Of a stretch of DNA of 64,000 bases, positions 28,433 through 64,000 are shown piece by piece. The stretch comes from Azolla caroliniana. Lineage: Eukaryota > Plantae > Polypodiophyta. Numbering within the stretch: the stretch's first letter is position 1; every line of letters begins with the position of its first letter. Made by a program: the position numbers and the translations under genes. The notes beneath the pieces were generated by a model that saw only the letters and a list, made by a program, of their open reading frames with translations, was not told the origin of the DNA and ran no database searches. Location: assembly GCA_043228905.1 (NCBI GenBank), contig JBHGNT010000021.1, positions 7,316,001 through 7,380,000 of the forward strand. The letters run 5' to 3'.

Positions 28433-29507
28433 ATCTAGAATATCTCTAGAATATACTCATCTAGAATATGCCGTACAATATTTTTAGGATATACTACCGA
28501 CTAGAATATTTTGATTTTGAAATGTACTATATGCTAGACTATAATATACTAAACCATTATATACAAATGTAGGCTCATATCAAAATGGTTGAGCATGACA
28601 TCTTGTAGATGTGAGGTCACAAGTTTAATCCTCACTAACTACGTATTTGACATCACTGTGCCGTGACATCCTCACCAAAGGAAAGTGGAGCGAGACTTGA
28701 ACTAAAATGAAAATGGAGTGCAAGTGAGCGGTTGTGACCCCCACCGGAACTGGGAAGGTGAGCGATCGAAAGCAATCGTGATGCCTATAGATGATAATAA
28801 TGATAATGAAGAGGGTGGAACAATGATGATGAGGATGAGGATGAGGTGTTGCAAAGTAGTGTTGATGAGGATGAATCTTGGGTGAAGAGGTGTTGAAAAT
28901 GATGATGTCAAAGACAGGCATGTTGATGATAGTAACTCCGGAACCAAGGATGGTGATGATGGTAACTCTAGAAGCAAAGGCGATGACAAAAACGGGTGAT
29001 GCGTCCAGTTGGAAGGGATTCAAACTGTCACGGACACACCAAGCGCTAACTAGGACGGAGCACAGATGATGGGGCTACGAGTGACGGATGAACTTGGAGC
29101 TAGATGTGACGAGGCTAGGAACTCTAGATGTTGTGAGCGACATGAGGGCATGAAGACAAAGATAAAGATGAGGCGAAACGAGAATACTAGATTGATGTGT
29201 CAATGACTGGTGTTGAATCCCTTGAAAGGGACCAAGGAGGTTACAAGTATTTATATACATGTTCCGAGATTGAATATATCTAGAATATACTCATCTAGAA
29301 TATGTAGTACAATATTTCTAGAATATACTACCGACTAGAATATTTTGATTCTAAAATGTACTATATGCTAGACTATAGAATCCTAAACCAATATATTATA
29401 TACAAATGCATGCTCATATCAAAATGGTTGAGCATGACATTTTGTAGATGTGAGGTTACAAGTTCAATCTTCACTAACTGCGTATTTGACGTCACTGTGT
29501 CGTGACA
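28432..29507 (-). mobile_element. Small non-coding LTR element (TRIM-like) with a self-complementary PBS
   Basis: 5' LTR at 29026-29507 (TGTCAC...GTGACA). A partial 3' LTR at ~28432-28668 repeats ~29270-29507. The 357-bp internal region has no recognisable domains. The PBS at 29013-29023 is complementary to 29213-29223. Confidence 0.75.
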
Positions 29508-32345: not shown

Positions 32346-33392
32346 TCATGAGGAGACGAACAAGATCGCCGCCGCCGCCGCCACCAGCAAGCAGTTGCGC
32401 CGCCGGACGTGGCGTGCGCCGCCGCCGACACCATCCGCCGCCACCGGAGCCACAGGGCTCACCGCATGGACTGCTATGCTGCTCGCGGAGGATTGGAAAT
32501 CACTCGAAGCGCCTCCTCCTCCTGCCGCCACCTCCGTGGGTGGCGGCGAAGAAGAAGAAGCCGCATTCGTACTGGTCCCGTAGCCTGTCGCCATCACTGG
32601 AGGCGGCGATGGCGATGGCGATGGCGATGGAGACAGCGATGGTGGCACCAAGCCGGTGGATGTGGCAGCCCGATCCACGGGACTTCTAGCGAGCGGTGGC
32701 GGTGGCGGTGGCGCAGGCAGAGCAATGGCGGTGGAGGCGGCGGTAGCGAGCGGAAGGACGCGGTCGAGGCCATGGCAGGTGATGAGGTGGGCGAGGGAGC
32801 GCGGGCAGATGTCAGGGTGGACGATGCGGGCGGCGTCGTCGATGAGGAGGAGGAAGGAGGAGGAGGAAGTGGAGGAGGAGGAGGAAGTGGAGGAGGAGGA
32901 GGAGATGCGGTGGCGGAAGGCGTCGCCAAGGAGGGTGGGGAGGAGGGCGCCGTCGGGCAGGAGGAGGAGGTCGGCGAAGGTGAGGTTAGAGGTGAGCATG
33001 TGGAAGCGGGCCACAGATTGGGGGGGCTGGGGCTGGGGCTGGCGGAGGACGGCGGCAGCGGCGGAGGCGGCGAAGATGGCGGCGTCGCTGGGGAGGAGGA
33101 GGGTGGTGGGTGTGAGGGCGAGGGGGCGGAGGTACGGAAGGAGGAGAGCGGCGGTGTAGAATGTGGCGCCGCCGCCACCGCCGCCATCGAGGAGGAGAGG
33201 GGCGCGGCGGAGGGATTGGGCCACGGCGGCGGCGGCGTCGGGCGGGAGTGGGCGGCGGGACGTAGGAGGAGCCGAAGCGGCACCGGCGGCGAGCTCGAGA
33301 AGCATAACTACTACTACTAGTACTACCACAGCTTGTACGATGGCCATGTTTTGACGAGCTAGTACGGTGGCGGCGGAGGTGAGGGCAGCCAT
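32346..33392 (-). CDS. Fasciclin-like arabinogalactan protein (signal peptide, FAS1 domain, Pro/Ser-rich region, probable GPI signal)
   Basis: Intact 348-aa ORF. Hydrophobic N-terminus (VVVLVVVVMLLELAAGA; the start may be the second Met). FAS1 H1-like TTLLLPSDAAI, ARFHML, H2-like ITCHGLDRVLP, SPSPSP/PPPP tracts and a hydrophobic C-terminal tail. Confidence 0.85.
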   Translation of the reverse strand: MAALTSAATVLARQNMAIVQAVVVLVVVVMLLELAAGAASAPPTSRRPLPPDAAAAVAQSLRRAPLLLDGGGGGGATFYTAALLLPYLRPLALTPTTLLLPSDAAIFAASAAAAVLRQPQPQPPQSVARFHMLTSNLTFADLLLLPDGALLPTLLGDAFRHRISSSSSTSSSSSTSSSSFLLLIDDAARIVHPDICPRSLAHLITCHGLDRVLPLATAASTAIALPAPPPPPPLARSPVDRAATSTGLVPPSLSPSPSPSPSPPPVMATGYGTSTNAASSSSPPPTEVAAGGGGASSDFQSSASSIAVHAVSPVAPVAADGVGGGARHVRRRNCLLVAAAAAILFVSS

Positions 33393-44500: not shown

Positions 44501-45827
44501 TCAAATTGGGTAACGATGGGTTACGCCGGTCAACCCGCCCGAAGGAACCTGTTCAACGGTACGGGTACAATGAGTACATGGCGCATCACTATGCGTACAT
44601 GACCAAGGTGGCGGAAGTGTGTGAGCCAGAGAGCTACGCAGAAGCGGCAAAGGACGCACATTGGCGTGCCGCTATGGAAGAAGAGATGCGGGCACTTGAT
44701 GCCAACGATACATGGGAGCTAGTTGTCCCTCCCCGTCACAGTAAACCGATCGGATGCAAGTGGGTGTAGAAGGTAAAGTACAACGCCGACGGTTCAATTA
44801 ACCAGTACAAGGCCCGGTTAGTGGCAAAGGGATACGCGCAGACCCACGGAATCGACTACGACGAGACCTTCTCTCCAGTAGCGAAGATGACAACGGTTCG
44901 TGTGGTGCTGGCGGTTGCTGCAGCAAGGGAGTGGCATCTTCACCAGATGGACGTGAAGAATGCATTTCTTCAAGGCGATCTAGAAGAAGAGGTCTTTATA
45001 ACCCAACCTCCCGGTTTTCAGTCGGAGATGAATACGTCGGCTGTATGCTGGCTGAAGAAGTCACTTTATGGCCTGAAGCAAGCCACCCTTGGACCAGAAA
45101 CTGAAGTTCTATCCCAACTTTGGACCGGCCTGCGATGAGAAACGGTTCCGACAAATTGTCGGAAGCCTTATATATTTGACCATCACCCGACCCGACATCA
45201 GCTATCCGGTCGGTGTGATTAGTCAATTCATGCAGAAGCCGACCGTCGAGCATCTTCAGTGCACGCACCGAATACTGCGGTATGTGAGCGGCATGAAGGA
45301 TCGGGGACTGTTATACCGGCGAGGTATGACTGAAGAGCTAGTCGGCTACATGGATGCCGACTGGGCCGACAATGCATCAGATCGCCGTTCCACTTCCGGC
45401 TATATGTTTTCCCTTGGTAGCGCGGTTGTTGCATGGAGCAGCAAAAAGCAACCAACAATGGCTCTGTCGAGCACTGAGGCTGAATACCGGGGCGCTACCG
45501 TTGCCACCTCTGAAGCCATTTGGCTTTGGTGACTGCTGCAAGACCTGCGGATTGAGGTGTCGACCCCGATCCTGATCTACTACGACAACATAAGCAACAT
45601 GCAGCTTGCCAAGAACCCCGTATTCCATGCTTGCACAAAGCACATCGAAGTGCACTACCACTTCGTGCGTGAGCGTGTCCTGAGCGGTGAAGTCGAACTT
45701 CGGTATTTTCATACGGTCGGCAAGTTGCCAACATCTTCACGAAACTGCTCGGATCGGACAAGTTGCAGTACTTCACCGAAATGCTTGGTGTTTAGCATCT
45801 CGACGTGCCACACTTGAGGGGGAGAAT
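41568..45827 (+). mobile_element. Decayed Ty1/Copia (partial 5' LTR, PBS 41766, gag-PR-IN-RT-RH), interrupted at its 3' end
   Basis: [81 protein letters not shown] and KHIEVHYHFVRE are present. Many stops and an internal RT deletion near 45088. Confidence 0.92.
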
Positions 45828-46045
45828 TGTCAAGATTCGAACTCTTGACACGACCATGTTATAATCTAGTATTATGAGTTAACCAAGATATCTAGTACTA
45901 GTTATGTATGTAATTGGTCCTTATTATTTTGCTAGCATCATGTGCATAGTTGCTCCCTTGTAGTATTTACACTTGGCACATGCATGCATACCTACATGCT
46001 CTATTGTAGATTCACATGCGTGCAACAAGTATGCATGCCATGTAG

Positions 46046-46193
46046 TATAAATAGAGGAGTTCACCTTGAAGGGATTCAAGGTGAACAACACCAGTTATGG
46101 AGTCTTTCCTTTAATACTATCTTCTTTCTTGTCCATTTGGTTATCTTCTTGCTTGTCTCTTGAGTTTATGATCCGTGACAGTTTGTTCACCTT
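46046..46193 (+). promoter_or_regulatory. LTR TATA box, putative TSS/self-primer and complementary PBS
   Basis: TATAAATA at 46046-46053, AAGGTGAACAA at 46078-46088 and TTGTTCACCTT at 46183-46193, 2 nt after the LTR end. Confidence 0.8.
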
Positions 46194-47219
46194 CCCATCC
46201 TCATAGCTCCCCCTCTCATAAGCCATAGCTATGTCCGACTCAACTAGTGAGTTAGGCCAAATAATGGTAGCCTTACGACAACTACAACTTGAAAATGAAG
46301 CTCTTCGAAATTCTTTACAAGAACTTCAAGTCGGTACCTCCCTATCCTCACAACCCCCGAACCCTAGTCTCACACAACAACCTAGCCTAGAGCCCGATCT
46401 TCTACCAACATCTAGCCTAGCTTCGTCACAGTTTCTTGAGCCTAAGGTTAGCCTCCCAGAAAAATTTGATGGAACGAGGTCGCGTTTCCGAGGGTTCATC
46501 AACCAAGTTCGACTTATCATTCGGCTACAACCTCAACGTTATGGAGATGGTCTTCGACAAGTCGGCCTTGTGGGCACCCTTCTCTCTGGTCCGGCCCAAG
46601 CTTGGTTTGCACCATTGGGAGAAACCTCATCACCTTTATTGGAGGACTTTCCCGCCTTCCTCGCCGAGTTAGAGGCCACATTTGGAGAGACGGACCGACG
46701 ACGTACAACTCTTAACAAGATTTATGCACTCGAACAAGGTTCACGTGCAGCTTCGGTCTACGCTTCCGAATTTCAACAACTAGCATGCGACGTCAATTGG
46801 GATGATCAAGCTTTAGCTGATCACTTTCGGCGCGGTCTTCGAAGCAATGTCAAGAATCTTCTCTTAAACTTTCCGGAGCCCACCTCGTTATCCCAAGCGA
46901 TTTCACAAGCAGTCCATTGTGACAATAGTCTTTTCGAATTTCGCCAAGAAGAGCGCCGGACTTGGGTTCCACCTCATTCACTTCCACGCCACACCCCGGT
47001 CATACAACCCCAAGCATCCTCACACTCACCTACTTCGGCAGATGCTCCTGTCCCCATGGAAATTGATCAAGCCTGATTTCAGCCATTGACTGATGCTGAA
47101 CGACAATTTCAGCGGGCTAATGGCTTGTGCATGTATTGTGGCGCCTCCGGTCATGTCGTTCACCATTGTCCTAGGAGTACTCGCCCACAATTCCATCGAG
47201 CTAACAGACCCCAACATCC

Positions 47220-47270
47220 GGAAAACGACATCGTTCGGTTGCAGTAGGAGCCATGCAACTGGACATCTCC
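47220..47270 (+). other. Putative -1 ribosomal frameshift signal (gag/pol) of the chromovirus
   Basis: G GAA AAC at 47220-47226. Pol is in the -1 frame and open from there. Downstream GTTGCA/TGCAAC forms a stem, with loop GGAG able to pair with CTCC. Confidence 0.65.
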
Positions 47271-50200
47271 CGTCGCCCACATTCTCTTGGTTCCATTGCT
47301 GGACCATCAGGCAATTTCACATTGGAGGTATGGCTTTCATTTAACTCTAGTTCCATTCAGTCTGTTGCTTTACTTGATTCTGGGGCATCTTCTTGCTTCA
47401 TCGACGTCGTGTTTGCCCAAGCACATGGCGTACCTGTCGTTGGCCTCTCAAAACCCATTCCAGTTGAAGCCATCAACGGGTGCGTCCTCTCGTCAGGTAC
47501 AATTACTCAAGTTACAATCCCATTAGGGCTTCGGGTGGGCTCACACCAAGAGGAGCTCACCTTTTACCTCATCGCATCTCCTCGACATCCGATCGTCTTA
47601 GGACTAACGTGGTTGGAGGCGCACAATCCAATAGTGAATTGGTGCAACCACTCGATCACATTTAGCAAGCCAAGATGCTCGTGCAAAAGTATGAAGGTAA
47701 ATTCAGTTTCCTATCCTTCGGAGACGGTCGACTTCGAATTAACTACCCCATCATCCGTCCAGGATGGGTTTGTTTGTGGCGCCATTTCTAACACACTCCA
47801 TGTTATTCCCGAAAAATACCAACACTTCTCCGACATATTTGAAAAATGTAATGCTGATCGGTTGCCTGAAGACCGGCTCTACGACTGTCCGATTGATCTT
47901 TGAGAAGGTGCGTGTCCACCCTTTGGTCCTCTATATGCGTTGTCTGCACCAGAGTTGAAGGCCCTTCGTGTGTATCTCGATGAGAACCTCGAGAAGGGCT
48001 TTATTCAACCTTCTAAGTCACCAGACGGGGCCCCCATTTTATTTGTGAAGAAGAAGGACGGCTCTCTACGCTTATGCGTCGACTACCGAGGTCTCAACAA
48101 ACTCACTATGCGCAATCGCTATCTGCTACCTCTGATCCTTGAACTCCTTGATCGGCTCTGAGTTGCGCGTGTCTTCTCCAAAGTTGATCTGCGTGGAGCG
48201 TACAATCTAGTACGCATCAAGCCGGGGGATGAATGGAAAACCGCATTTCGAACACGGTATGGGCATTTCGAATACAAGGTAATGCCTTTTGGTCTTACCA
48301 ACGCTCCCGCAGTTTTTCAACATATGATGAACGATATTTTCTGGGAATATCTTGATCTTTTTGTTGTCATTTACCTCGATGATATTCTCATTTTCTCGCC
48401 AAACATGGAGGAGCACACTCGCCAAGTCCGATTAGTTCTTGCCAAACTTCGCGAGCATGGCCTTTATGCCAAAGGCGAGAAATGCGAGTTCGACCGTACC
48501 TCGATCGAATTTCTGGGCTACATCATCTCGCCCACTGGCATCACCATGGATATGAAGAAGGTCTCTGTCATTCAGGCGTGGGCGACTCCTAGGCGACTTA
48601 AAGATGTGCAATCCTTCCTCGGCTTCGCGAATTTTTACCGTCGCTTCATCAAGGGGTTTTCCACCCTAGCACAACCTCTTATCGCTCTCACCCATAAAGG
48701 CACTCCATTTTTATGGACCTCGGAGGCACAAAATGCATTCGACTCACTCAAACACACATTCATCACTGCCCCGGTGTTGCTACATGCCGACCCCACAAAA
48801 CCCTTCCAAGTCGAAACCGATGCCTCTGACTTTGCCATTGGCGCCATCTTATCCCAAGCAGACGACAACAACCAAATGCACCCAGTGGCTTACTATTCCC
48901 GAAAATTTACGGCATCTGAAATCAATTATCCCATTTACGACAAGGAGCTTGCTGCTATCATTGCTGCCTTTGAAGAATGGTGACCCTACTTGGCCGGCGC
49001 ACAACATCGTGTCCAGGTAGTGACTGATCATAAAAATTTAGTTTATTTTTTCACCACTCGTACTTTGAATCGAAGGCAGGCCCGTTGGTCGACATTTCTC
49101 GCCGACTACGATTTTGAGATCGTATTTCGACTTGGTGGCCAACATGGGAAGGCTGATGCCCTTTCTCGCCGAGCTGACCTTGCACTCCGCCTTGGGGATG
49201 CTACTTATGCTCAACAATCTAGATGTTTGTTGAAACCCGACCAATTGCATCTGTTTGCCACTTGTATGTTGTAGGATGATTCTTTACTCCAACAAATCAC
49301 TGATGCATCCAAGACCGATGCGTTCGCCAACGAGATTCGAGATAGTCTGCAAAACCCCTCCAAGGCGACCAAAAGGAAGGATCTTGACACCTTCACCATA
49401 CAAGAGGGTTTGTTGTTCCAAGATCATCTCTTGTACGTCCCAGAGGGCCCATGTTGCACCCAGGTGTTGCGGGAATGCCACGATGACCCACTTGCAGGTC
49501 ATTTCGGGGTCGCGAAAACCCTCGAGCTAATCTCTCGGGGATATTGGTGGCCACAACCATGGAAGCTGGTCAAAGAATACATAAAGAGTTGTGAGGTTTG
49601 TGCTCGCTCCAAAGCCATTCATCATCGGCCATACGGCTTACTACAGCCGCTTCCATGTCCTCGTCGTCCTTGGGCCTCTATCTCTATGGACCTGATAATT
49701 GATCTACCCTTGGTCAATAGCTATGACTCGGTGTTGGTCGTTGTCGATCGGTTTACAAAGATGGCTCACTTCACTCCATGCTCCAAAACCATTTCCGGAG
49801 AAGGAATGGTGCAACTCCTACTCAACAATGTAGTACGCTTGCATGGACTCCCCGATGATGTCATCTCGGATCGCGGACCCCAGTTTGTCTCTCACTTCTG
49901 GCAGCGCCTGCTACAAACTTTAGGCATCTCTGTCAAGTTGTCCTCCGCTTATCACCCCCAAACTGATGGGCAAACGGATCGTTGTCGTGAAGAAAACCGT
50001 CCACAAGCGGAATCGGTGCACCGGAGCGTAGGAACCGGCTCTTCGTGCACATGCGCCTTATGTTGTACATAGAAGATCCTAGGCAGGTAGATTCGGTAGG
50101 TAGGGAAACGGCTCCTTCCTTACCTATAAAAGGAGGGAGACGAGGAGGGGCGAAGGATCGCAGAGAGTGGAGGACGAAGTGTTGTCGGTTCGTGGGCGAA

Positions 50201-50598
50201 GGCTTCTCTCTCTCTCTGGTTCGCAAACTCCATAGGTTCCTTCTGTGCAGGTTTCGGGAGGCTCGCGCTGCTCTGAGGAATGCCCGAGTGCTTCTGGCAG
50301 CACCTCAAACCTACTCCTTCCTTTCTGTGCGTTTACGAACAGGTATCGGCATCTGTTCGCCGGTCTGTTCGGTTGTAACCGACTTCGTGTTTTGTTGTCT
50401 GTCTTTGTTAATACATACATACATTCGTGTCTCTCTGTGTCGCTGTCCCACTCGCGCCTTTGTGTCGAAGGGCCGTGTCCCTGTGAATCTACTCTCGCAC
50501 GTAGTGGGTCTCTTCTCCTTTCTCTCTTGCTCTTCGGTACAGGACCCCCGAGGTCCCGCCTCATTCCACGCATCCGTGAGGAAAAACCTCGACATCTT

Positions 50599-50616
50599 TG
50601 GTGAACCCGACGTGAA
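50599..50616 (+). other. Primer-binding site complementary to the tRNA-Trp 3' end
   Basis: TGGTGAACCCGACGTGAA is the reverse complement of ...TTCACGTCGGGTTCACCA, as recalled for plant cytosolic tRNA-Trp. It is identical in the inner copy (62631-62648, -). Confidence 0.8.
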
Positions 50617-53600
50617 AGAGGCGGCAAAAGAGCAGAAGATGAAAGGGTCGGATCTTGCAGAGGCCATGGCTTCGGCCGTGGATCGGATATTGAGTGCACG
50701 CGAGGGCACCGACGCCCTCGACAGAGCCATTGAGGCGGTCGTCGGTACGATTGGCCGGTTCAGCGGAAAGGATGCCACGAAGTATTTGGCGTCCTACGGG
50801 GCAGAAATGCTGATGCGGGACATTCCGGAAGAGAGGCGTGTTGCCGGGTTTCCTCGAGTGGCGATGCCGAGCATCCATGCGGAGGTGCTCGAGGTGCGGG
50901 CGGAGAGCCGTACCTGGGAGGAGTTCGAAGGCCTACTCCTAGAAAAATACGGGCTGGACGACGCGCTCCGGCTTTCGAAACGGGACTTCATGGAATGGGT
51001 GGAGTCCCCCGGCAAGGGAAGAAACGCGACGGCACTCCTCCGGGAGTTTGAAGAACGCTTCGCGCGCCTTTCGGCGCTTGACCGAACCGTTCTGGATACA
51101 AGCCGGGTCCTACTGTTCGTCAAGTCGGTGGACGAGCGGGACCGGGACCAAGTCGGCTCCTTGTTGGAAACCGAGGACGGGCTGACAACTGACTGGGCTG
51201 AGGTTAAGAGAGTCTGTGGCCGTTTCGATAAACGGCGAGAATGGGCTGACAACGGGGCTGCCGGTGCGGGCTCTGTCACAGCAAGGAGGCTTGAACCGGC
51301 ACCGCAAGTGCGAAGGGGAGAAACCCGGGAATGGCTCGAAACCGGTCCGGCTTCGACCGGCATGGTCAATGGCTCGTCCGGAGGAGTAGCGCTGGAGGAG
51401 TTGACGCGGGCGATAAAGGATCTCCAGATCGCCCAGACTCGAAGGGAAGGCGGCGAACCGGCTCGTGACCGACGGCCGGCAGCGGGGAACACGTGCATGT
51501 GGTGCGACGAGGTCGGCCACATTCGGAAGGACTGCGGTGATTTCGCAGAGGTGTTGAGGAAATGGGTGGTGTACCTGTGGGAAGGCCGGGTGCACGCCGG
51601 CGACACCAGGAGGGCCCTGAACCGAAACGACGGGCGAGGAGGAATGAAGAGACTGATGGAAGAGGCAGCGGCCCGACACGTGGAGGCCATCCACTACTCG
51701 GCGTCGGCCGGCATTCGGGTCGGGGGCAGGGAGGCCCGAAAGGAGGGCAAAGACGGATTCTGGTCGGCAATGCTAGAAGGTCTTGCCGGCGCACGGCTAA
51801 GGAAAGATGAAACGGACCGCATTGAGAGACGGGTCCGGGAAATAACCGGGTGGAGCGATCCGGTCGAGGAGAAGACGGGCTTTGTAGAAGCCGCCTGCCG
51901 GAACTACGAGGCTCTGGTTGAAGACAAAGGGGTGGGGAAAGCCGGAGCGGCCGGGCCCTCACAACGGTACGAGACCCGATTCGGGCAACGACGGAACGAT
52001 GCTGGTGGGTCCAGCCCGCAAGATAACCCCAGGAAGGGCGGATACCGACTGGGGACGGAAATAGAAAGGTCCTAGAAGAACGGATCCTCGACAGCAAAGT
52101 GGAGCTGTCATTGCGAGAGGTGCTAGGGATCGCCAAGAAGGAGTTCCACGACTCCATTGTGGACCTGGTGAAACGGAAGAGGCTGTCGACGGAGACGGAA
52201 CCAGAAAGACCGGTGGAGGTGCGGACGACGCACATCGACGACATGGCGATGGAAGACGAGTGGGCGGAGAGCCACTATTCGAGGCCACACTGGGCCCGAG
52301 CGACCACAGAGACCCCGGTAAAGATCGGAGATGTTCAGGAACCGGTGGTGGCATTGGTGGACCACGGTTCGGAAATAAACCTGATGTCCATGGACTTCTA
52401 TAAGAAGGGGAAGTGGCCGATCAACACCAAGCACGGGTGGAAGATACGGGCAACGACGCGTGCCACCGAGGAACTGCATGGGGCCTGCCCGAACGTGCGA
52501 GTCAAGATCGGCGACGTCGAGATTGACCAGCACTTCTTCGTACAGGAGATGTCCTCGCACCCGGTCATATTAGGGGAACCATACATCACGGCGGCGCGAA
52601 TGGAGACCAAGGTGCTGGACAACGGTTCAGCCTACGCGAGGGTCAAAAGCCAGGACGGGCGCCATTCGGTGCAATTTCTAACGGTGCGGCCGAACCACGA
52701 GAGAAAGCGCGAGTCCCTCGGTGGCGAGAACCGGGAGGATTTTTAGAGAGGGCTGCCAAGGCGTGGGGCCGAGACAGCCCGGACACTCGGAAAAGACCCC
52801 ACGACTGTACGATAGGTAGGAAATTTTGCTTCTCCAACAACGGAGGGTGTATGATAGTCGGCATCGTTGGCTGAGAAAAGACAAGGGCGGAAGAGCGATT
52901 TCGAGCGTGCGGAGTTCTCGGCCCGGACAAGGAAATCAGCGGAGCCGTGGAGGCGGTCTCCTTCGACGACACCTTGGGAATGCTGAGGAAGGTAGCCGGA
53001 GAAGACCTTAACGAAGACTGGACGATACCGGTATGTTCCGAAGAGATGTATGAAGTTATTGCGAACTTCAGTCGGGGGCTCGGGTCGGATCGGACGGCCC
53101 GAGTTAGCACGAAGTTCAAGACTGTGGACCAGAAGGTAAGGCCAGTCGCGGCACCCTTGCCGGAGGGCAGCGAGTCCCGAATCAGAGGGGTGGCGTTGGA
53201 CCCCACTTTACGAGATCCGGCCTGCATAGGACACACCTTCACCGACGGGACGCTCTGGGAGCTCAAGATCGGTGGGGGCGGGTTCCTACTGCCGGCGGAG
53301 GAAGACCGGTTTCGGAGAATGCTCGGAAGGCACGGAAAGGCCTTCGCATTCTCACCGGAAGAGATCGGGTGCGTAGACCCGACGATCGTGGAGCCGATGG
53401 TGATATTCACGGTACCGCATGTGCCGTGGAATCTCAAGCCGATTCCGGTACCGAGAGCTCACATCCCGAAGTTGATGGAGCTATTGAGGCAGAAAGTAGA
53501 TATGGGCATTCTCGAACCGTCGAGTGCCCCATACTCGAACCGATGGGAGAAATCGGCCTTCGGGCAATCAGAAATCCTGGTGGTCGGACACCTATGTGGA

Positions 53601-56600
53601 CCATATGGCCGGAAGCCATCTCCGGCAAAGGTAGAAGCCATCTCTGCGATGAAGACCGACTGTAACTCGGTTACGGAAGTTCTAAGGTTCCTGGGGCATG
53701 CGCGTTCTACCACATATGGATCCCACATTATGCCCACGTTGCGGAGGCGCTATATGGGTCGCTGAAGAAAGGGCGAAAATTCGAATGGCGAGACGAGCAC
53801 ACGGAGTCGGTCCGGAAGCTGAAGGAAGCTCTTGCGGCAGCACCGGCGCTCCGAAAGGCTGTCTATGAGAAGGGTACCCCGGTATACATAACGGTGGATA
53901 CGAGCCCGACCGTTATCGGATGGGTCGTCAACCAAGAAGACAAGGACGACATTCGGTTCCCGTTCCGATTCGGCGCGAAGGTCCTCAGTGAGCGACAGCG
54001 AGGGTACGCCCAGGTTTAGCGCGAACTCTGGGGTATCGTTTCGGCAGTAAAGGCCGACAAAGACTACCTGATCGGGACAGAAGTAGTTATCGAGACGGAT
54101 TGCCTGCCAATTCTCGGCATGGTTTCCGGATGCGCGACACCGGACCTGGCGATGCTCAGGTGGATAGCGTACATCAAGTCCCTGGACCCGGAAATACGAC
54201 ACATTTCCAGAAAGGACAACGCCATGGCCGACATGCTTTCGAGGGCGAGGTTTGATAACGAGGGCGGCATGGTTTCGGAGGATGAAGAAGTCAGCGTGGA
54301 CTTCTTCGAGGTAGCGTACGTGACGACTGATGGGACGAGCTCTCCGGCGCTTAACGGTTTTGACGAGAGCAAGTACGACGACGAGTGGCTACAGATCCGG
54401 AAGAGAGCATACCGATTCTTTCTCCGGGACGGATACTTATGGAAACACCCGAAGAAGAGGAACGGCGTCCCGCTCCGGGTGGTGGCGATGAAGGAAGAAC
54501 AGGAGGAGCTGCTGACGGCTTACCACGACAGCCCTTGGGCTGGACACCGTGGAACGTGGGCCACGTTCGAGAAGATAAAGGGGAAGTACTGGTGGCCAGG
54601 ATTGTACTGGGACGTGCATCGGTTCGTGACAACTTGCGAGAGCTGTCAGATGCACTCCATAGTCCGACATCGGGACGAGCTTCACCCTACGTACCCTCTG
54701 ACCATCCACTTCAAATGGATGGTAGATCTGGTGACGATGCCGATGGGAGTAGGACAAATGCGGTATCTGGTCCTGGCTCGGGAAGATCTCACGAACCAGG
54801 TAGAAGGCCGAGCCCTTCAGAACAAAACGACCGTAGCCGTATGTCGGTTCCTGATCGAGGACATGATATGCCGGTACGGGTGCGTCGGGAAGATCGTGGC
54901 TGATCGCGGGGAGTTGGACGCCGAAGAGGCCAAAGAGCTGTTCGACCAGCTAGGAGTCAAGCTCTCGCTTACCACTGCGTACAATCCGGAGGCGAATGGG
55001 AAGGTGGAGCGCGGACACGGACCGATCGTCAAGGCGTTAGTTCGGGCATGCGGAGGTCAAGTTGGGAACTGGCCGCGACTGCTGCCTTACGCGTTGTGGG
55101 TTGACCGAACTACGCACAGTTCGGTAACCAGATTCATGCCGGCAGAGCTCATGTTTGGGCAGAAGCCGATCATGCCGATGGAACGTACGATCTCCTCATG
55201 GGCAACCGTGGACTGGAGAGACGAGATGAGCCGAGAGGAACTGTTGACGGCGCGCATATGACAGCTCGAGCGAAGACCGGAGGACGTGGAGCAGGCTGCG
55301 GAAAAGCTTCGGGGGGCCAGTACGAGGAACAAAGCCCGGTTCGACCGGACGCACTGGCTCCGACCGAAGAAGATCGAGGAAGGCGACTGGGTGCTAGTCT
55401 ACGACAGCAGCCTCGACAACCAGCACCGAGCGACACGGAAGTTCGCAAGAAGGTTGTTCGGGCCTTACGTGGTACAAAGCGCCAACGACAACGGGACGTA
55501 CCATCAGGCGGAACTCGACGGAACGAGGATGGCTATACCGGTAACTGGGAAGCGGATCAAAGCGTTCAAGAAGCGTCACGACGACGAGCCGGATCCGGTT
55601 AACCTGGACCGCGACGACGAACGATCCGAAACCCAAGAAGAACCGACGGGCGGAGAATGAAGGCTGGACCGGTTTTCTCCGTCCCAACACAATTTGGCGC
55701 ATGCCGGTGGATGCGCGGTTAGGTGGGGGCAGATGTCGTGAAGAAAACCGTCCACAAGCGGAATCGGTGCACGGGAGCGTAGGAACCGACTCTTCGTGCA
55801 CATGCGCCTTATGTTGTACATAGAAGATCCTAGGCAGGTAGATTCGGTAGGTAGGGAAACGGCTCCTTCCTTACCTATAAAAGGAGGGAGACGAGGAGGG
55901 GCGAAGGATCGCAGAGAGTGGAGGACGAAGTGTTGTCGGTTCGTGGGCGAAGGCTTCTCTCTCTCTCTGGTTCGCAAACTCCATAGGTTCCTTCTGTGCA
56001 GGTTTCGGGAGGCTCGCGCTGCTCTGAGGAATGCCCGAGTGCTTCCGGCAGCACCTCAAACCTACTCCTTCCTTTCTGTGCGTTTACGAACAGGTATCGG
56101 CATCTGTTCGCCGGTCTGTTCGGTTGTAACCGACTTCGTGTTTTGTTGTCTGTCTTTGTTAATACATACATACATTCGTGTCTCTCTGTGTCGCTGTCCC
56201 ACTCGCGCCTTTGTGTCGAAGGGCCGTGTCCCTGTGAATCTACTCTCGCACGTAGTGGGTCTCTTCTCCTTTCTCTCTTGCTCTTCGGTACAGGACCCCA
56301 GAGGTCCCGCCTCATTCCACGCATCCGCTGTCGAGGTATTCCTCGCGGATGTGTGGAGTGAGGCGGGACCTCGGGAGTCCTGTACCGAAGAGTAAGAGAG
56401 AGAGAGACCCACTACGTGCGAGCGTAGATTCACAGGGACACGGCCCTTCGACGCAAGGACGCGAATGGGACAGCGACACAAAAGACACGAAAGTATGTAT
56501 GTATTGACAAGACAAACAACAAGAACACTAAGACAACAAAACACGAAGTCGGTTACAACCGAACAGGCCGGCGGACAGATGCCGATACCTGTTCGTAAAC

Positions 56601-57031
56601 GCACAAAAAGACAGGAACAGGTTGGAGGTGCTGCCGGAAGCACTCGGGCATTCCTCGGAGCAGCGCGAGCCTCCCGAAACCTGCACAGAAGGAAGCTATG
56701 GAGTCTGTGAACCAGAGAGAGAGAGAGAGAGAGAGAGAGAAGCCTTCGCGCCCAATCCGACAGCACTTCGTCCTCGACTCTCCGCGATCCCTTTACTCTC
56801 CTCGTCTCCCTCCTTTTATAGACAAGGAAGGAGCCGTTTCCCCTTTACTCCCTACCTACCGAACCTACCTAGGATTTCCTTAAGGCGCACGTGCATGAAG
56901 AGTCGGTTTCTACGCTCCAGTACACCGATTCCACTTGTGGACGGTTTTCTTCACGACATCCGCCCCCACCTAACCGCGCATCCACCGGCATGCGCCAAAT
57001 TGTGTTGGGACGGAGAAAACCGGCCCAGCCT

Positions 57032-60000
57032 TCATTCCCCGCCCGTTGGTTCTTCCTCGGTTTCGGATCGCTCGTCATCGCGGTCCAAGTCAACCTGATC
57101 CGGCTCGTCGTCGTGACGCTTCTTGAACGTCTTGATCCGCTTCCCAGCTACCGGTATCATCATTCTTGTACCGTCGAGTTCCGCCAGATGGTACGTCCCG
57201 TTGTCGTTGGCGCTTTGTACCACGTAAGGCCCGAACCACCTCCTTGCGAACTTCCGCGTTGCTCGGTGCTGGTTGTCGAGGCTGCTGTCGTAGACCAGCA
57301 CCCAGTCGCCTTCCTCGATCTTCTTCGGTCGGAGCCGGTGTGTTCGGTCGAACCGGGCTTTGTTCCTCATCCTTGCTTCCCGAAGCTTTTCCACAGCCTA
57401 CTCCACGTCCTCCGGTCTCCGCTCGAGCTGTCGTATGCGCGCCATCAACAGTTCCTCCCGGCTCATCTCGTCTCTCCAGTCCACGGTTGCCCATGAGGAG
57501 ACCGTACGTTCGATCGGCATGATCAGCTTCTGCCCAAACATGAGCTCTGCCGGCATGAATCCGGTTACCGAACTATGCGTAGTCCGATCAGCTCACAACG
57601 CGTAAGGCAGTAGCCGCGGCCAGTTCCCGACTTGACCTCCGCATGCTCGAACTAACGCCTTGACGATCGGTCCGTGTCCGCGCTCCACCTTTCCATTTGC
57701 CTCCGGGTTGTACGCAGTGGTAAGTGAGAGCTTGACTCCTAGCCGGTCGAACAGCTCCTCGGCCTCTTCGGCGTCCAACTCCCCACGATCAGCCACGATC
57801 TTTCCGACGCACCCGTACCGGCATATTACGTCCTCGAGCAGGAACCGACATACGGCCGCAGTCGTTTTGTTCTGAAGGGCCCGGCCTTCCACCTGGTTCG
57901 TTAGATCTTCCCGAGCTAGGACCAGATACCGCATCTGTCCTACTCCTATCGGCATCGTTACCAGGTCTACCATCCATTTGAAGTGGATGGTCGGAGGGTA
58001 CGTAGGGTGAAGTTCGTCCCGGTGTCGGACTATGGAGTGCATCTGACAGCTCTCGCAAGTTGTCACGAATCGATGCACGTCCCGGTACAGTCCCGGCCAC
58101 AAGTACTTCCCCTTTATCTTCTCGAACGTGGCCCAGGTTCCACGGTGTCCGGCCCAAGGGCTGTCGTGGTAGGCCGTCAGTAGCTCCTCCTGTTCTTCCT
58201 TCATCGCCACCACCTGGAGCGGAGCGCCGTCCCTCTTCTTCGGGTGCTTCCATAGGTATCCGTCCCGGAGAAAGAATCGGTAAGCTTTCTTCCGGATCCG
58301 GTTGGACTCGTCCTTCGTCCATGATGCATCCGGCGTCATTTTCCTCAAGAATCCACCGATCTGGAGCCACTCGCCGTCGTACTTGTTCTCGTCGAAGTCG
58401 TTAAGTGCCGGAGTGCTCGTCCCATTGGTTGTCACGTACGCTGACTCGAAGAAGTCCACGCCGACTTCTTCGTCCTCCGAAACCATGCCGCCCTCGTCAT
58501 CAAACCTTGCCCTCGAAAGCATGTCGGCCATGGCGTTATCCTTTCCGGAAATGTGCCGTATTTCCGGGTCCAGGGACTTGACGTAGGCTATCCACCTGAG
58601 CATCGCCAGGTCCGGTGTGGCGCATCCGGAAACCATGCCGAGAATTGGCAGGCAATCCGTCTCGATAATCACTTCTGCCCCGATCAGGTAGTCTTTGTCG
58701 GCCTTTACTGCCGAAACGATACCCCAGAGTTCACGTTTAACCTGGGCGTACCCTCGTTGTCGCTCACTGAGGATCTTCGCGCCGAATCGGATCGGGAACC
58801 GAACGCCGTCCTCGTCTTCTTGGTTGACGACCCATCCGATCCCGGTCGGACTCGTATCCACCGTTATGTATACCGGGGTACCCTTCCCGTAGACAGCCTT
58901 CCGGAGCGCCGGTGCTGCCGCAAGAGCTTCCTTCAGCTTCCGGACCGACTCCGTATGCTCGTCTCGCCATTCGAATTTTTGCCCTTTCTTCAGCAACCCG
59001 TATAGCGGCTCCGCAACGTGGGCGTAATGCGGGATCCATATGTGGTAGAACGCGCATGCCCCTAGGAACCTCCGAACTTCCGTAACCGAGCTACAGTCGG
59101 TCTTCATCGCGGAGATGGCTTCTACCTTTGCCGGAGACGGCTTCCGGCCATATGGTCCGCATAGATGCCCGACCACCAGGATTTCTGATTGCCCGAAGGC
59201 CGACTTCTCCCCGGAGAAGGTGAGCCTCGCCTCCTCTAGCCTTTGTAGCACCTTCTCGCAGTCGTTGATGTGTGTTGCAACGAATCGCCGGCATCCGTCA
59301 GGCCCGAGTGTCTCGTCCTTCTCTTCCACCGGGCACCCTTTGATAGGGATGTCGTCTAGAAACGGCATGGTGATGTCCGGGATGCAATCCCTCAGTACCT
59401 TGTTCATTGCATTCACCATGTGGGCCACCGAGTTGGTCCCTCCCTGTGGCAGGGTACACATTCGCACTAGGCTGAGGGGAGTTCGCATCGTCGTAATGTC
59501 TCTGCTTTCCACGGCTAGCTGGAACTGGTCGTACCCTGAGTACAGATCACCGATCGAGTAAATCGACCTCCCGGCAAAGGCCTCCGCGAACTCGTCTATG
59601 GTGGGTCCGATTCCTGCGTTTCGAATGGTCACTCTGTTGACCGGCTGCAGGTCTTGAATGAAGCGCAACGTTCCGTTTTTCTTCGGTACGGTAAACCATC
59701 GGTTCGAGTATGGGGCACTCGACGGTTCAAGAATGCCCATATCTACTTTCTGCCTCAATAGCTCCATCAACTTCGGGATGTGAGCTCTCGGTACCGGAAT
59801 CGGCTTGAGATTCCACGGCACATGCGGTACCGTGAATATCACCATCGGCTCCACGATCGTCGGGTCTACGCACCCGATCTCTTCCGGTGAGAATGCGAAG
59901 GCTTTCCCGTGCCTTCCGAGCATCCTCCGAAACCGGTTTTCCTCCGCCGGCAGTAGGAACCCGCCCCCACCGATTTTGAGCTCCCGGAGCGTCCCGTCGG

Positions 60001-60500
60001 TGAAGGTGTGCCCTATGCAGGCCGGATCTCGTAAACTGGGGTCCGACGCAACCCCTCTGATCCTGGACTCGCTGCCCTCCGGTAAGGGTGCCGAGACTGG
60101 CCTTACCTTCCGGTCCACAGTCTTGTACTTTGTGCTAACTCGGGCCGTCTGATCCGTCCCGAGCCCCCGACTGAAGTCCGCGATGACTTCGTACATCTCT
60201 TCGGAACATACCGGTATCGTCCGGTCTTCGTTAAGGTCTTCTCCGGCAACCTTCCTCAGCATCCCTAAGGTGTCGTCGAAGGAGACCGCCTCCACGGCTC
60301 CGTTGATTTCCTCGTCCGGGCCGAGAACTCCGCACGCTCGAAGTCGCTCTTCCGCCCTTGTCTTTTCTCGGCCAACGATGTCGACCATCATACACCCTCC
60401 GTTGTCGGAGAAGCAAAATCCCCTACCTATCGTACAGTCGTGGGGTCTTTTCCGAGTGTCCGGGCTGTCTCGGCCCCACGCCTTGGCAGCCCTCTCTAAA
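57032..60500 (-). pseudogene. Pol (RT-RNase H-integrase) of the inner Gypsy, with two stops in the integrase C-terminal part
   Basis: 932-aa ORF 57593-60391 has LRFIQDLQPVN, DLYSGYDQ, LPQGGTNS, PFLDD, VDTSPTGIG, H..H..CESC zinc finger and ADRG..ANGKVER. A GPY motif lies in 57032-57394. No chromodomain. Confidence 0.92.
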
Positions 60501-62609
60501 AATCCTCCCGGTTCTCGCCACCGAGGGACTCGCGGTTTCTCTCATGGTTCGGCCGCACCGTCAAAAATTGCACCGAATGGCGCCTGTCCTGGCTTTTGAC
60601 CCTCGCGTAGGCCGAACCGTTGTCTAGCACCTTGGTCTCCATTCGCGCCGTCCCCTAATATGACCGGGTGCGAAGACGTTTCCTGTACGAAGAAGTGCTG
60701 GTCAATCTCGACGTCGCCGATCTTGACTCGCTCGTTCGGGCAGGCCCCATGCAGTTCCTCTGTGGCGCGCGTCGCCGCCCGTATCTTCCACCCGTGCTTG
60801 GTGTTGATCGGCCACTTCCCCTTCTTATAGAAGTCCATGGACATTAAGTTTATTTCCAAACTGTGGTCCACCAACGCCACCACCGGTTCCCGAACATCTC
60901 CGATTTTTACCGGGGTCTCCGTGGTCGCTCGGACCCAGTGTGGCCTCGAATAGTGGCTCTCCGCCCACTCATCTTCCAGCGCCGAGTCGTCGATGTGCGT
61001 CGTCCGCACCTCCACCGGTTTTTCCGGTTCCGTCTCCGTCGATAGTCTCTTCCGTTTCACCAAGTCTACAATGGAGTCGTGGAACTCCTTCTTGGCGATC
61101 CCTAGCACCTCCCATAATGACAGCTCCACCTTGCTGTCGAGGATCCGTTCCTCTAGGACCTTCCGTAGGTCCGTAGTCCTTTCAATTTCCGTCCCTAGTC
61201 GGTATCCGCCCTTCCTGGGGTTATCTTGCGAGCTGGACCCACTGGCATCGTTCCGTCGTTGCCCGAATCGGGTCTCGTACCGTTGTGAGGGCCCGGCCGC
61301 TCCGGCTTTCCCCACTCGTTTTTCTTCTACCAGAGCCTCGTAGTTCCGGCAAGCGGCTTCTACGAAGCCCGTCTTCTCCTCGACCGTATCGTTCCACCCG
61401 GTTATTTCCCGGACCCGCCTCTCAGCGTGGTCCGTTTCATCTTTCCTCAGCTGCGCACCGGCGAGGCCTTCCAGCATTGCCGACCAGAAACCGTCTTTAC
61501 TTTCCTTTCGGGCCTCGCTGCCCCTGACCTGAATACCGGCTGACGCCGAGTAGTGGATGGCCTCCACGTGTCGGGCCACTGCCTCTTCCATCAGTCTCTT
61601 CATACCTCCTCGCCCGTCGTTTCGGCTCAGGGCCCTCCTGGTGTCGCCAGCGTGCACCCGGCCTTCCCACAGGTACACCACCCGGTTTCTCAACGCCTCT
61701 GCGAAATCGCCGCAGTCCTTCCGAATGTGGCCGACCTCGTCGCACCACATGCACCTGTTCCCTGCTGCCGGCCGTCGGTCACGAGCCGGTTCGCCGCCTT
61801 CCCTTCGAGTCTGGGCGATCTGGAGATCCTTTATCGCCCGCGTCAACTCCTCTAGCGCGGCTCCTCCGGACGAGCCATTGACCATGCTGGTCGAAGCTGG
61901 ACCGGTCTCGAGCCATTCCCGGGTTTCTTCCCTTCGCACTTGCGGTGCCGGTTCAAGCCTCCTTGCTGTAACAGAGCCCGCACCTGCCGCCCCGTTGTCA
62001 GCCCATTCTCGCCGTTTGTCAAAACGGCCACAGACTCTCTTAACCGCAGCCCAGTCGGTTGTCAGCCCGTCTTCAGTTTCCAGCAAGGAGCCGACTTGAT
62101 CCCGGTCCTGCTCGTCCACCGACTTGACGAACAGTAGGACCTGGCTCATATCCAGAATGGTTCGGTCAAGCGCCGAAAGGCGCGCAAAGCGTTCTTCGAA
62201 CTCCCGGAGGAGTGCCGACGCGTTTCTTCCTTTGCCGGGGGACTCCACCCATTCCATGAAGTCCCGTTTCGAAAGCCGGAGCGCATCGTCCAGCCCATAT
62301 TTCTCTAGGAGTCGGCCTTCGAACTCCTCCCAAGTACGGCTCTCCGCCCGTACCTCGAGCACCTCCGCATGGATGCTCGGCATCGCCACTCGAGGGAACC
62401 CGGCAAGACGCCTCTCTTCCGGAATGTCCCGCATCAGCATTTCCGCCCCGTAGGACGCCAAATACCTCATAGCATCCTTTCCGCTGAAACGGCCGATCGT
62501 ACCGACGACCGCCTCAATGGCTCTGTCGAGGGCACTGGTGCCCTCGTGTGTGCTCAATATCCGATCCACGGCCGAAGCCATGGCCTCTGCAAGATCCGAC
62601 CCCCTCATC
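60496..62609 (-). pseudogene. Gag-protease of the inner Gypsy (frameshifted by a ~14-nt deletion near 60650)
   Basis: MRGSDLAEAM start, CMWCDEVGHIRKDC knuckle, protease LVDH(S/G). The C-terminus is out of frame relative to the outer copy. Confidence 0.85.
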
Positions 62610-64000
62610 CTCTGCTCTTCTGCCGCCTCTTTCACGTCGGGTTCACCAAATATGTCGAGGTATTCCTCGCGGATGCGTGGAGTGAGGCGGGACCTCGGGA
62701 GTCCTGTACCGAAGAGTAAGAGAGAGAGAGACCCACTACGTGCGAGAGTAGATTCATAGGGACACGACCCTTCGACGCAAGGACGCGAATGGGACAGCGA
62801 CACAAAAGACACGAAAGTATGTATGTATTGACAAGACAAACAACAAGAACACTAAGACAACAAAACACGAAGTCGGTTACAACCGAACAGGCCGGCGGAC
62901 AGATGCCGATACCTGTTCGTAAACGCACAGAAAGACAGGAACAGGTTGGAGGTGCTGCCGGAAGCACTCGGGCATTCCTCGGAGCAGCGCGAGCCTCCCG
63001 AAACCTGCACAGAAGGAAGCTATGGAGTCTGTGAACCAGAGAGAGAGAGAGAGAGAGAGAAGCCTTCGCGCCCAATCCGACAGCACTTCGTCCTCGACTC
63101 TCCGCGATCCCTTTACTCTCCTCGTCTCCCTCCTTTTATAGACAAGGAAGGAGCCGTTTCCCCTTTACTCCCTACCTACCGAACCTACCTAGGATTTCCT
63201 TAAGGCGCACGTGCATGAAGAGTCGGTTTCTACGCTCCAGTACACCGATTCCACTTGTGGACGGTTTTCTTCACGACACCGCGAGGAAAAACCTCGACAG
63301 CGTGTCAACCAAATCCTTGAGCAGTATCTTCGGTGCTCGGTTAGTTACCAACAAGATGATTGGGGCAACTTACTTTCGCTCGCGGAATTCGCCTACAATA
63401 ATTCTCTCCATGCATCGACTGGCGTCACTCCCTTCTTTGCCAACTACGGTTTACATCCTCGCTTCAACATTTCCCTTCCTACCACTTCCGTGAACCCTTC
63501 GGCGGAGGATCGCGCCCACATTTTGGAAGAAGTACATCATGATTTATCCTTGGAGCTTAGTCTTGCTAGTGAACGATACAAGAAGCAGGCTGATCGCCAT
63601 CGATCTTCCACTCCACACTTTGTCGTTGGAGACATGGTCTGGTTGTTACGCCGACACATCTCTACTACTCGTCCATGTGCGAAACTTGATTACAAGAAGT
63701 TGGGACCATTCCGTATCATCGAGTGCATCAATCCCGTCGCCTTCCGACTCGCCCTTCCATCCCACTTCCGGATTCATGATGTTTTTCATGTCTCCCTCCT
63801 CGAACCCCATTATGCTTCACAACTCCCAGGACGTCAAGCCCCACCACCACCACCTGTGCAATTGACGACAGGGGAGGAATACGAGGTCGACCAAATCCTT
63901 GACTCACGTTGGCACCGTCGACACTTGCAATACCTCGTCCTATGGAGGGGTTACCCCATGTCTGAGGCCACATGGGAACCATCGGCAAATTTACAAAATG

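What the first reader, a model, noticed from the sequence alone, without database searches (positions are those of the whole stretch)
45828..46193. tRNA-independent self-priming signature in a chromovirus LTR, supported by covariation with a second element
Seen: instead of a TGG tRNA PBS, the LTR end (TCCGTGACA|GT) is followed by TTGTTCACCTT. This is the perfect complement of AAGGTGAACAA, which starts 32 nt after TATAAATA, where the TSS is expected. The element at 28432-29507 has the same geometry (TATA +32, TCCGTGACA|GT|11 nt|CC) but the pair is AAGGGATTCAA/TTGAATCCCTT, so all four central positions changed compensatorily. Known: S. pombe Tf1 primes reverse transcription with the first 11 nt of its own RNA, released by RNase H. 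Inference: a Tf1-like self-priming family is present in this plant genome, with subfamily-specific primers.
Basis: partly seen in the sequence, partly recalled or inferred. Interest (0 to 1): 0.85.

Follow-up and report, generated by a model that had tools for sequence, protein, structure and literature searches.

The report
Self-priming plant retrotransposon with primer lock
This plant jumping gene has no tRNA docking site; 11 bases there pair with the predicted start of its own RNA and relatives keep the pairing with different letters, so it likely primes its own copying, as already predicted in print for this group, and a conserved hairpin just upstream would hide the second copy of the primer.

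Summary
Observation confirmed. E1 (from 45828) is a decayed Ty3/gypsy chromovirus whose RT groups with fungal and vertebrate elements (98/99 support): Tf1/sushi group, probably Tcn1 clade, host probably a moss. E2 is a short non-coding relative. Covariation holds beyond two copies: of 43 related loci with both anchors, 26 pair 11/11 and 11 have one or two mismatches; nine primer types give 96/99 pairs (1 of 362,880 permutations). A second helix (after CACCA, with the LTR end) covaries too. The idea is not new: Neumann 2019 predicted self-priming for 83% of 1500 plant Tcn1 elements, and this scan noted it before in two moss windows. Folding puts primer on PBS when RNA starts at 46078 (P=0.99) but into the hairpin when U3 is present (15 of 21 elements), so it may lock the 3' copy of the primer. 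I found no paper on it; earlier scan notes saw it in a diatom and a fungal element. It is weak in E2. TSS, cleavage and host tRNAs were not tested.

The parts
45828..46180 (+). E1 5' LTR (353 bp, TGTCA...TGACA)
   Evidence: start backed by contig ends and L001-L003
46046..46053 (+). TATA box, 32 nt before the primer
   Evidence: same spacing in 45 of 47 sites found in loci, 31 and 33 in the other two
46059..46070 (+). U3 arm: 5' strand of a 12-bp hairpin (loop 46071-46074) that pairs with 46075-46086, i.e. with primer bases 1-9
   Evidence: z -5.15
46078..46088 (+). predicted self-primer = predicted first 11 nt of the RNA
   Evidence: TSS itself not measured
46089..46093 (+). conserved CACCA after the primer; first C is predicted unpaired (likely cleavage site before it, by analogy with Tf1)
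46094..46101 (+). 5' strand of second helix
46172..46179 (+). 3' strand of second helix (LTR end)
46181..46182 (+). 2-nt spacer GT (GA in some relatives)
46183..46193 (+). primer-binding site, complement of 46078-46088, no TGG
46231..47247 (+). gag (Retrotrans_gag, DUF4939, weak Ty3_capsid; CCHC knuckle), broken by a stop at 47074 in this copy
47205..49982 (+). pol: protease, RT, RNase H, first part of integrase; opens in another frame overlapping the end of gag; several stops
63300..64000 (+). rest of E1 integrase: SH3_Tf2-1 and chromodomain (about 63877 to window end) after a 13.3-kb nested insertion
29026..29507 (-). E2 5' LTR (482 bp); TATA 29255-29248, primer 29223-29213, long second helix with the LTR end, weak U3 arm
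29013..29023 (-). E2 primer-binding site TTGAATCCCTT
28669..29012 (-). E2 internal region, 344 nt, low complexity, no gag or pol match, weak purine tract; many similar contigs in four runs
28438..28668 (-). E2 3' LTR fragment (U3 only, about 90% identical to the 5' LTR)

Best explanation
E1 is a decayed plant chromovirus of the Tf1/sushi group (probably Tcn1 clade) that likely primes reverse transcription with the first 11 bases of its own RNA, and a covarying hairpin across the predicted U3/R border would hide the primer sequence wherever U3 is present. Shown: perfect primer/PBS complement at TATA+32, its covariation, a second covarying helix, the covarying hairpin. Inferred from Tf1: transcription starts at 46078, the 5' end folds onto the PBS, RNase H cuts after base 11, the 11-mer primes minus-strand DNA, and copying of the unremoved primer rewrites the PBS so that it follows the primer. 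Inferred here: in the 3' LTR of the RNA and in strong-stop or full-length cDNA strands the U3 arm pairs with the primer copy and keeps it from taking the PBS (about 45%). E2 is likely a non-autonomous relative with its own primer.
For: Chance 1 and 4 of 20000. 43 of 81 loci have both anchors, set without asking for complementarity: 26 perfect, 6 one mismatch, 5 two. Nine primer types: 96 of 99 pairs, 1 of 362,880 permutations. Second helix: -142.0 vs -99.6 +/- 8.1 kcal/mol swapped, 0 of 5000. RNA from +1: P(primer:PBS) at least 0.97 in 20 of 21 elements; with U3 added it falls under 0.5 in 15 of 21 (17 of 21 with DNA energies). Hairpin: 94.4% of 216 cells paired, 14 cells changed on both sides (0 of 500 shuffles), two covarying pairs lie wholly in U3; swap test 0 of 20000; primer complement only at -24..-7, 0 of 18 in every window from -120 to -30. 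RT clade with fungal, frog, fish and amoebozoan elements 98/99; chromodomain. L030 and L007 carry an L006/L010-type promoter stretch on another gag-pol, and their PBS matches that primer. Tf1 facts: PMC7175516, 10.1101/2022.12.06.519325, PMC11042837.
Against: No TSS or cleavage evidence: all runs laid were contigs. The third duplex of the Tf1 'pretzel' (bases 3' of the PBS) is not supported: -123.6 vs -121.6 +/- 6.9 swapped, 7585 of 20000. The U3 hairpin is weak in E2 (-8.0 kcal/mol, z -2.2) and in L033, L050, L063, L064, L072 (-6.2 to -9.2); the count of pairs with two-sided change (4) is reached by 50 of 500 shuffles. The loci are related and many are near-copies; the anchors fix 2 of the 11 pairs; the set was pre-selected for at most 2 mismatches. 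6 of 43 loci pair poorly. No named Tcn1 sequence was in the tree.
Confidence: 0.88

Rival explanations
1. The PBS is primed by a host tRNA, half-tRNA or other small RNA, and the LTR complement is incidental.
For: Host tRNAs could not be searched: no genome, none in the window or in 16 of 81 loci scanned. One primer type (L058, L060, L065) holds GGTTCAA, like a tRNA T-loop (motif recalled). Neumann lists tRNA-Met for 5% of Tcn1.
Against: No PBS starts with TGG; nine different PBS types each match their own LTR at TATA+32 and no other assignment does as well; tRNA-primed neighbours show no such complement.
Confidence: 0.04
2. Self-priming is right, but the U3/R hairpin is not a primer lock: it acts at the promoter (start-site choice, DNA cruciform), in 3' end formation or strand transfer, or is a by-product of snap-back copying.
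For: It sits between TATA and the predicted start; it is weak in E2 and in the 10-nt-primer group, which were evidently mobile; L065 uses another register. Start-site choice controls primer presence in Tf2 (PMC5341516).
Against: The arm tracks the primer sequence in five primer types (L006, L022, L032, L080, E1); G-U pairs are tolerated (5 of 18 at one pair), which suits RNA; no comparable hairpin at TATA+8..+47 in five TATA sites of TGG-primed or copia LTR regions (z -1.3 to +0.9).
Confidence: 0.45
3. Transcription starts upstream of the arm, and the hairpin is a switch inside the 5' leader that holds the primer off until packaging.
For: Arm and PBS compete for the same bases and are close in energy in L002, L012, L022, L023, L043. 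TSS was not measured.
Against: The arm begins 13 nt after the first T of TATA, too near for a start site by established plant Pol II spacing (own knowledge); the +32 spacing to the primer is nearly invariant; in Tf1 and Tosmo the primer is the RNA 5' end.
Confidence: 0.07
4. The pairings are only packaging or structural RNA helices with no role in priming.
For: Covariation shows pairing, not priming.
Against: Position (2 nt after the LTR end), length (10-12 nt), lack of any other primer site and membership of the group in which self-priming was shown.
Confidence: 0.03

Closest known systems
Plant Tcn1-clade chromoviruses (REXdb; Neumann et al. 2019, PMC6317226; Novikova et al. 2010, PMC2864245)
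   Same: Ty3/gypsy with group I chromodomain, gag and pol in overlapping frames, RT on the fungal/vertebrate side, no tRNA PBS, at least 10-nt complement in the 5' LTR starting 0-5 nt after it (Neumann's criterion; 83% of 1500 elements).
   Different: In the passages read, Neumann gives only a BLAST-based prediction, no covariation, second helix or U3 arm; Novikova found no self-priming in SM-Tcn1. Neumann's Additional file 1 (per-element primers) was too large to read and may hold these 11-mers.
Tf1/Tf2 (S. pombe), Tj1, Tosmo1-3, Tcry1, Cryptococcus Tcn1, sushi
   Same: 11-nt primer at the predicted RNA 5' end paired with a PBS just after the LTR; a second duplex between R/U5 and the LTR end; SH3_Tf2-1 and chromodomain.
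   Different: Other primer sequences; the third 'pretzel' duplex is not supported here; a U3/R hairpin over the primer is not mentioned in the passages read; mechanism shown by experiment only in fission yeast.
TAR lineage of plant Ty1/copia (Houba, Osr-1)
   Same: Predicted self-priming in plants (89% of 203).
   Different: Copia superfamily; unrelated domain order.
Non-autonomous LTR elements (TRIM-like; label from own knowledge)
   Same: E2: two LTRs, PBS, short non-coding interior, many similar contigs.
   Different: Carries a self-primer of its own type; 3' LTR cut, no target-site duplication, so a deletion derivative is not excluded.

Membership tests
Tf1/sushi group, plant Tcn1 clade | Ty3/gypsy order gag-PR-RT-RH-IN | tested here: met
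Tf1/sushi group, plant Tcn1 clade | C-terminal chromodomain with aromatic cage (group I) | tested here: met
   PF00385 E 3e-13; Y, W, Y read from the translation; criterion from PMC3350952
Tf1/sushi group | RT groups with fungal and vertebrate chromoviruses, apart from other green-plant gypsy elements | tested here: met
   22 rows vs 9 rows (Tanacetum, Chara, Closterium) split with 98/99 support; references are named by host only
plant Tcn1 clade | Clusters with named Tcn1 elements (Cryptococcus Tcn1, SM-Tcn1, Physcomitrium elements) | not testable with these tools
   no named Tcn1 sequence came from any call
plant Tcn1 clade | No tRNA PBS; 10 nt or more complementary to the 5' LTR starting 0-5 nt after it | tested here: met
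   criterion
plant Tcn1 clade | gag and pol in overlapping frames (60% of members) | tested here: met
   gag frame ends 47247, protease frame opens 47205
plant Tcn1 clade | 5-bp target-site duplication | not testable with these tools
   E1 3' LTR beyond the window; E2 3' LTR cut
plant Tcn1 clade | Host is a moss or club-moss | tested here: inconclusive
   streptophyte FAS1 gene; nested elements with Phygy traits point to a moss; one search gave one unnamed hit
Tf1-type self-priming | Primer is the 5' end of the RNA | not testable with these tools
   only contigs available; TATA+32 spacing is indirect
Tf1-type self-priming | RNase H cut after base 11 and primer-linked cDNA | not testable with these tools
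   needs experiment
Tf1-type self-priming | Duplex between R/U5 and the LTR end next to the PBS | tested here: met
   0 of 5000 swaps; P 0.87 in E1, 1.0 in E2, under 0.3 in 5 of 21 elements
Tf1-type self-priming | Third pretzel duplex (bases 3' of the PBS with the LTR) | tested here: not met
   7585 of 20000 swaps as good; a short 2-3 bp duplex would escape this test

The most novel reading that the evidence does not exclude
Self-priming LTR elements carry a third, selected copy of the primer-binding sequence in U3: a lock that folds over the primer in every intermediate that holds U3 (RNA 3' end, cDNA strands) and leaves it free only at the true RNA 5' end. Primer, PBS and lock co-evolve as a three-strand code, with the PBS rewritten from the primer at each round, which would explain how primer sequences drift freely between families.
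Probability: 0.45. Interest if true: 0.6.

Novelty: new member of a known kind. Interest (0 to 1): 0.38.

Why it matters
The headline is already predicted in print, so it changes little. What is added is comparative proof of pairing (a BLAST match alone was the published criterion), a predicted TSS to the base, and a testable answer to a plain problem of self-priming: the RNA has a second copy of the primer at its 3' end and cDNA strands hold primer and PBS together, so something should stop mispairing. The U3 arm can be tested with three-strand compensatory mutants. Self-primed elements also escape tRNA-based PBS annotation.

Tried and rejected
No own genome, so no genome-wide copy count or host tRNA search; no tRNA in the window or 16 of 81 loci. 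Viral contigs: 21 pattern hits, none confirmed. Variation at primer or PBS bases within the host could not be read: those places are not among the 40 rows shown, 115 and 182 rows were hidden. Idea that 45828-46180 is the 3' LTR of the upstream copia: rejected, relatives have this LTR before their gag and after their own purine tract. Idea that E1's primer arose by insertion behind E2's 11-mer at 46069: rejected (private base 46073). Three independent T/C triple changes: not claimed, because U3 of L006, L010 and L030 is related (scores 43-52 vs 31 or less for other pairs) and a promoter swap explains them. Third pretzel duplex not supported. Host: FAS1 gene search gave one unnamed hit; cluster look-up gave no accessions. 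No locus holds E2's primer type, so its autonomous partner is unknown. Lin and Levin 1998 not held. Searches for a described U3 hairpin or covariation: 0 papers, only general hits, 2 papers, whose passages read earlier (the latter as preprint) do not describe it.

Full report
Observation. Every motif named is at its place. In E1 the LTR (45828-46180) is followed by GT and TTGTTCACCTT, the exact complement of 46078-46088, which starts 32 nt after the first T of TATAAATA. E2 (minus strand, 29507 downwards) has the same layout with another 11-mer pair. Resampled LTRs gave an 11-nt complement 0-5 nt after the end in 1 of 20000 (E1) and 4 of 20000 (E2) trials; two copia LTR ends and nested element B gave 4 nt and have TGG sites (a fourth control had a misplaced end and is dropped). 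LTR borders are backed by contig ends and relatives.

What the elements are. E1 has gag, protease, RT, RNase H and integrase in gypsy order, broken by stops, and is split at 49982 by a 13.3-kb nested insertion; the integrase resumes near 63300 with SH3_Tf2-1 and a chromodomain. Named RT hits from a mucoralean fungus (65%), frogs (57-62%) and fish (57-58%) are closer than those of a seed plant (42-49%), Chara or Closterium. A careful tree of 31 rows splits E1, its loci and the fungal, vertebrate and amoebozoan rows from Tanacetum, Chara and Closterium with 98/99 support (these rows are a subset of the 81 of the quick tree, which agreed). That is the Tf1/sushi side; among plants this is the Tcn1 clade (PMC6317226), but no named Tcn1 sequence was available. 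The host is a streptophyte and probably a moss, inferred from Phygy-like neighbours. E2 has no coding match, a 344-nt interior and a cut 3' LTR; many contigs in four runs cover it, so it is likely a non-autonomous family.

Covariation. With anchors that do not ask for complementarity (TATA ... CAA-CACCA-like site; LTR end before gag), 28 of 81 loci lack an LTR-end anchor, 10 lack the strict promoter site (four of these, L033, L064, L065, L080, have a primer with 2, 1, 0, 0 mismatches), and 43 have both: 26 pair 11/11, 6 have one mismatch, 5 two, 1 three and 5 have six or seven (three lost the LTR end; two are false or decayed anchors). The anchors fix 2 of the 11 pairs. One representative for each of nine primer types (of 12 distinct strings; three that look decayed were left out, and the set was pre-selected for at most two mismatches) gives 96 of 99 Watson-Crick pairs, reached by 1 of 362,880 permutations (mean 62). 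Primer types need 14 changes on the gag tree. The T/C change at base 5 appears in three gag lineages, but their U3 is related, so a promoter swap is likelier than three origins; the PBS follows the primer, not the neighbouring gag-pol, as expected if the primer is copied into the PBS (about half of Tf1 cDNA carries a copied PBS; PMC11042837).

Further structure. After the primer comes conserved CACCA and then a strand that pairs with the LTR end, with matched changes (e.g. L012, L027, L030); 18 distinct pairs, 0 of 5000 swaps as stable. This is one of the flanking duplexes of the Tf1 'pretzel'. The other, 3' of the PBS, is not supported (7585 of 20000 swaps). RNA folded from +1 puts the primer on the PBS with P of 0.97 or more in 20 of 21 elements.

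The U3 arm. Between TATA and primer lies a complement of primer bases 1-9 that closes a 12-bp hairpin (E1: -18.9 kcal/mol, z -5.15). In 18 aligned promoters 94.4% of cells pair; 14 cells change on both sides (0 of 500 shuffles), the count of such pairs (4) is reached by 50 of 500, slid controls pair 25-48%, and two covarying pairs lie wholly in U3. Swapping primers between families destroys it (0 of 20000). The complement is confined to -24..-7 and five TATA sites of TGG-primed or copia LTR regions in the window show nothing like it. With U3 included, primer:PBS pairing falls under 0.5 in 15 of 21 elements (17 of 21 as DNA). Against: it is weak in E2 and five other records, related sequences can pass such shuffles, and no function is shown. 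Since U3 is absent from the RNA 5' end but present at its 3' end and in cDNA, the simplest reading is a lock on the spare primer copy (about 45%); a promoter, 3' end or strand-transfer role is as open.

Mechanism. Shown: the three pairings and their covariation. Inferred from Tf1 (PMC7175516): start at 46078, cut after base 11 by RNase H, priming by the 11-mer. Not tested: TSS, cleavage, host tRNAs.

What is known. Neumann et al. 2019 predicted self-priming for 83% of 1500 plant Tcn1 elements by the very criterion met here (passages; Additional file 5 read whole; Additional file 1 too large, and it may list these primers). Novikova et al. 2010 found none in SM-Tcn1 (passages). Also read as passages only: PMC7175516, PMC4600332, PMC3601003, 10.1101/2022.12.06.519325, PMC5341516, PMC3350952, PMC11042837. 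The primary Tf1 and sushi papers were seen only as titles in reference lists (one asked for, not held), so a description of the U3 hairpin there cannot be excluded; searches listed none. Earlier unchecked notes of this scan report self-priming in two moss windows and a U3/R hairpin over the primer in a diatom copia and a fungal element; I had found the hairpin before looking, and did not test their sequences.

Verdict. Real, well supported, and a new member of a known kind. Interest 0.38: the headline is in print; the covariation and the U3 lock are the useful additions.

Noticed in passing
window 49983-63299: Two nested non-chromovirus gypsy elements interrupt E1's integrase: A (+, 49983-63299) and B (-, 56329-63278) inside A's 3' LTR. 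Both have 4-bp NCGN target sites (TCGT/GCGT, CCGC/CCGC) and a TGG primer site 4 nt after the LTR (tRNA-Trp by recall), the traits of Phygy in Neumann's table. LTR pairs are 98-99% identical, so they are young.
   Followed up: partly
window 45814-45828: E1 is inserted right at the purine tract of a tRNA-Met-type copia element (PBS at 41766), separating it from its 3' LTR.
   Followed up: partly
L030 1-300, L007 1-160: Promoter/primer stretch resembles L006/L010 while gag-pol is sister to L027 and L011; the PBS matches the promoter's primer. Fits PBS rewriting from the primer; direction of the swap not known.
   Followed up: partly
L047-L078 (e.g. L057 5636-5830): A more distant group has a 10-nt primer at TATA+33, a 700-950 nt leader before gag, and a weak U3 arm.
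   Followed up: partly
L021, L026, L040: Close relatives of E1 that lost the LTR end next to the PBS while keeping primer and most of the PBS.
   Followed up: no
L080, L081: Plant-type retrotransposon contigs inside two prokaryote genome assemblies (titles name a cyanobacterium and a Streptomyces): likely contamination.
   Followed up: no
window 45828-45850: E1's LTR starts with its own small inverted repeat (8-bp arms), kept in L001-L003.
   Followed up: no
window 46094-46101 with 46222-46229; L002, L004: In the E1/L004 clade the 5' strand of the second helix can also pair with a stretch after the PBS, near the gag start, with a matching change in L004: a possible alternative fold.
   Followed up: no
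window 32349-33392 (-): GC-rich single-exon host gene, fasciclin-like by model features, no Pfam hit.
   Followed up: partly
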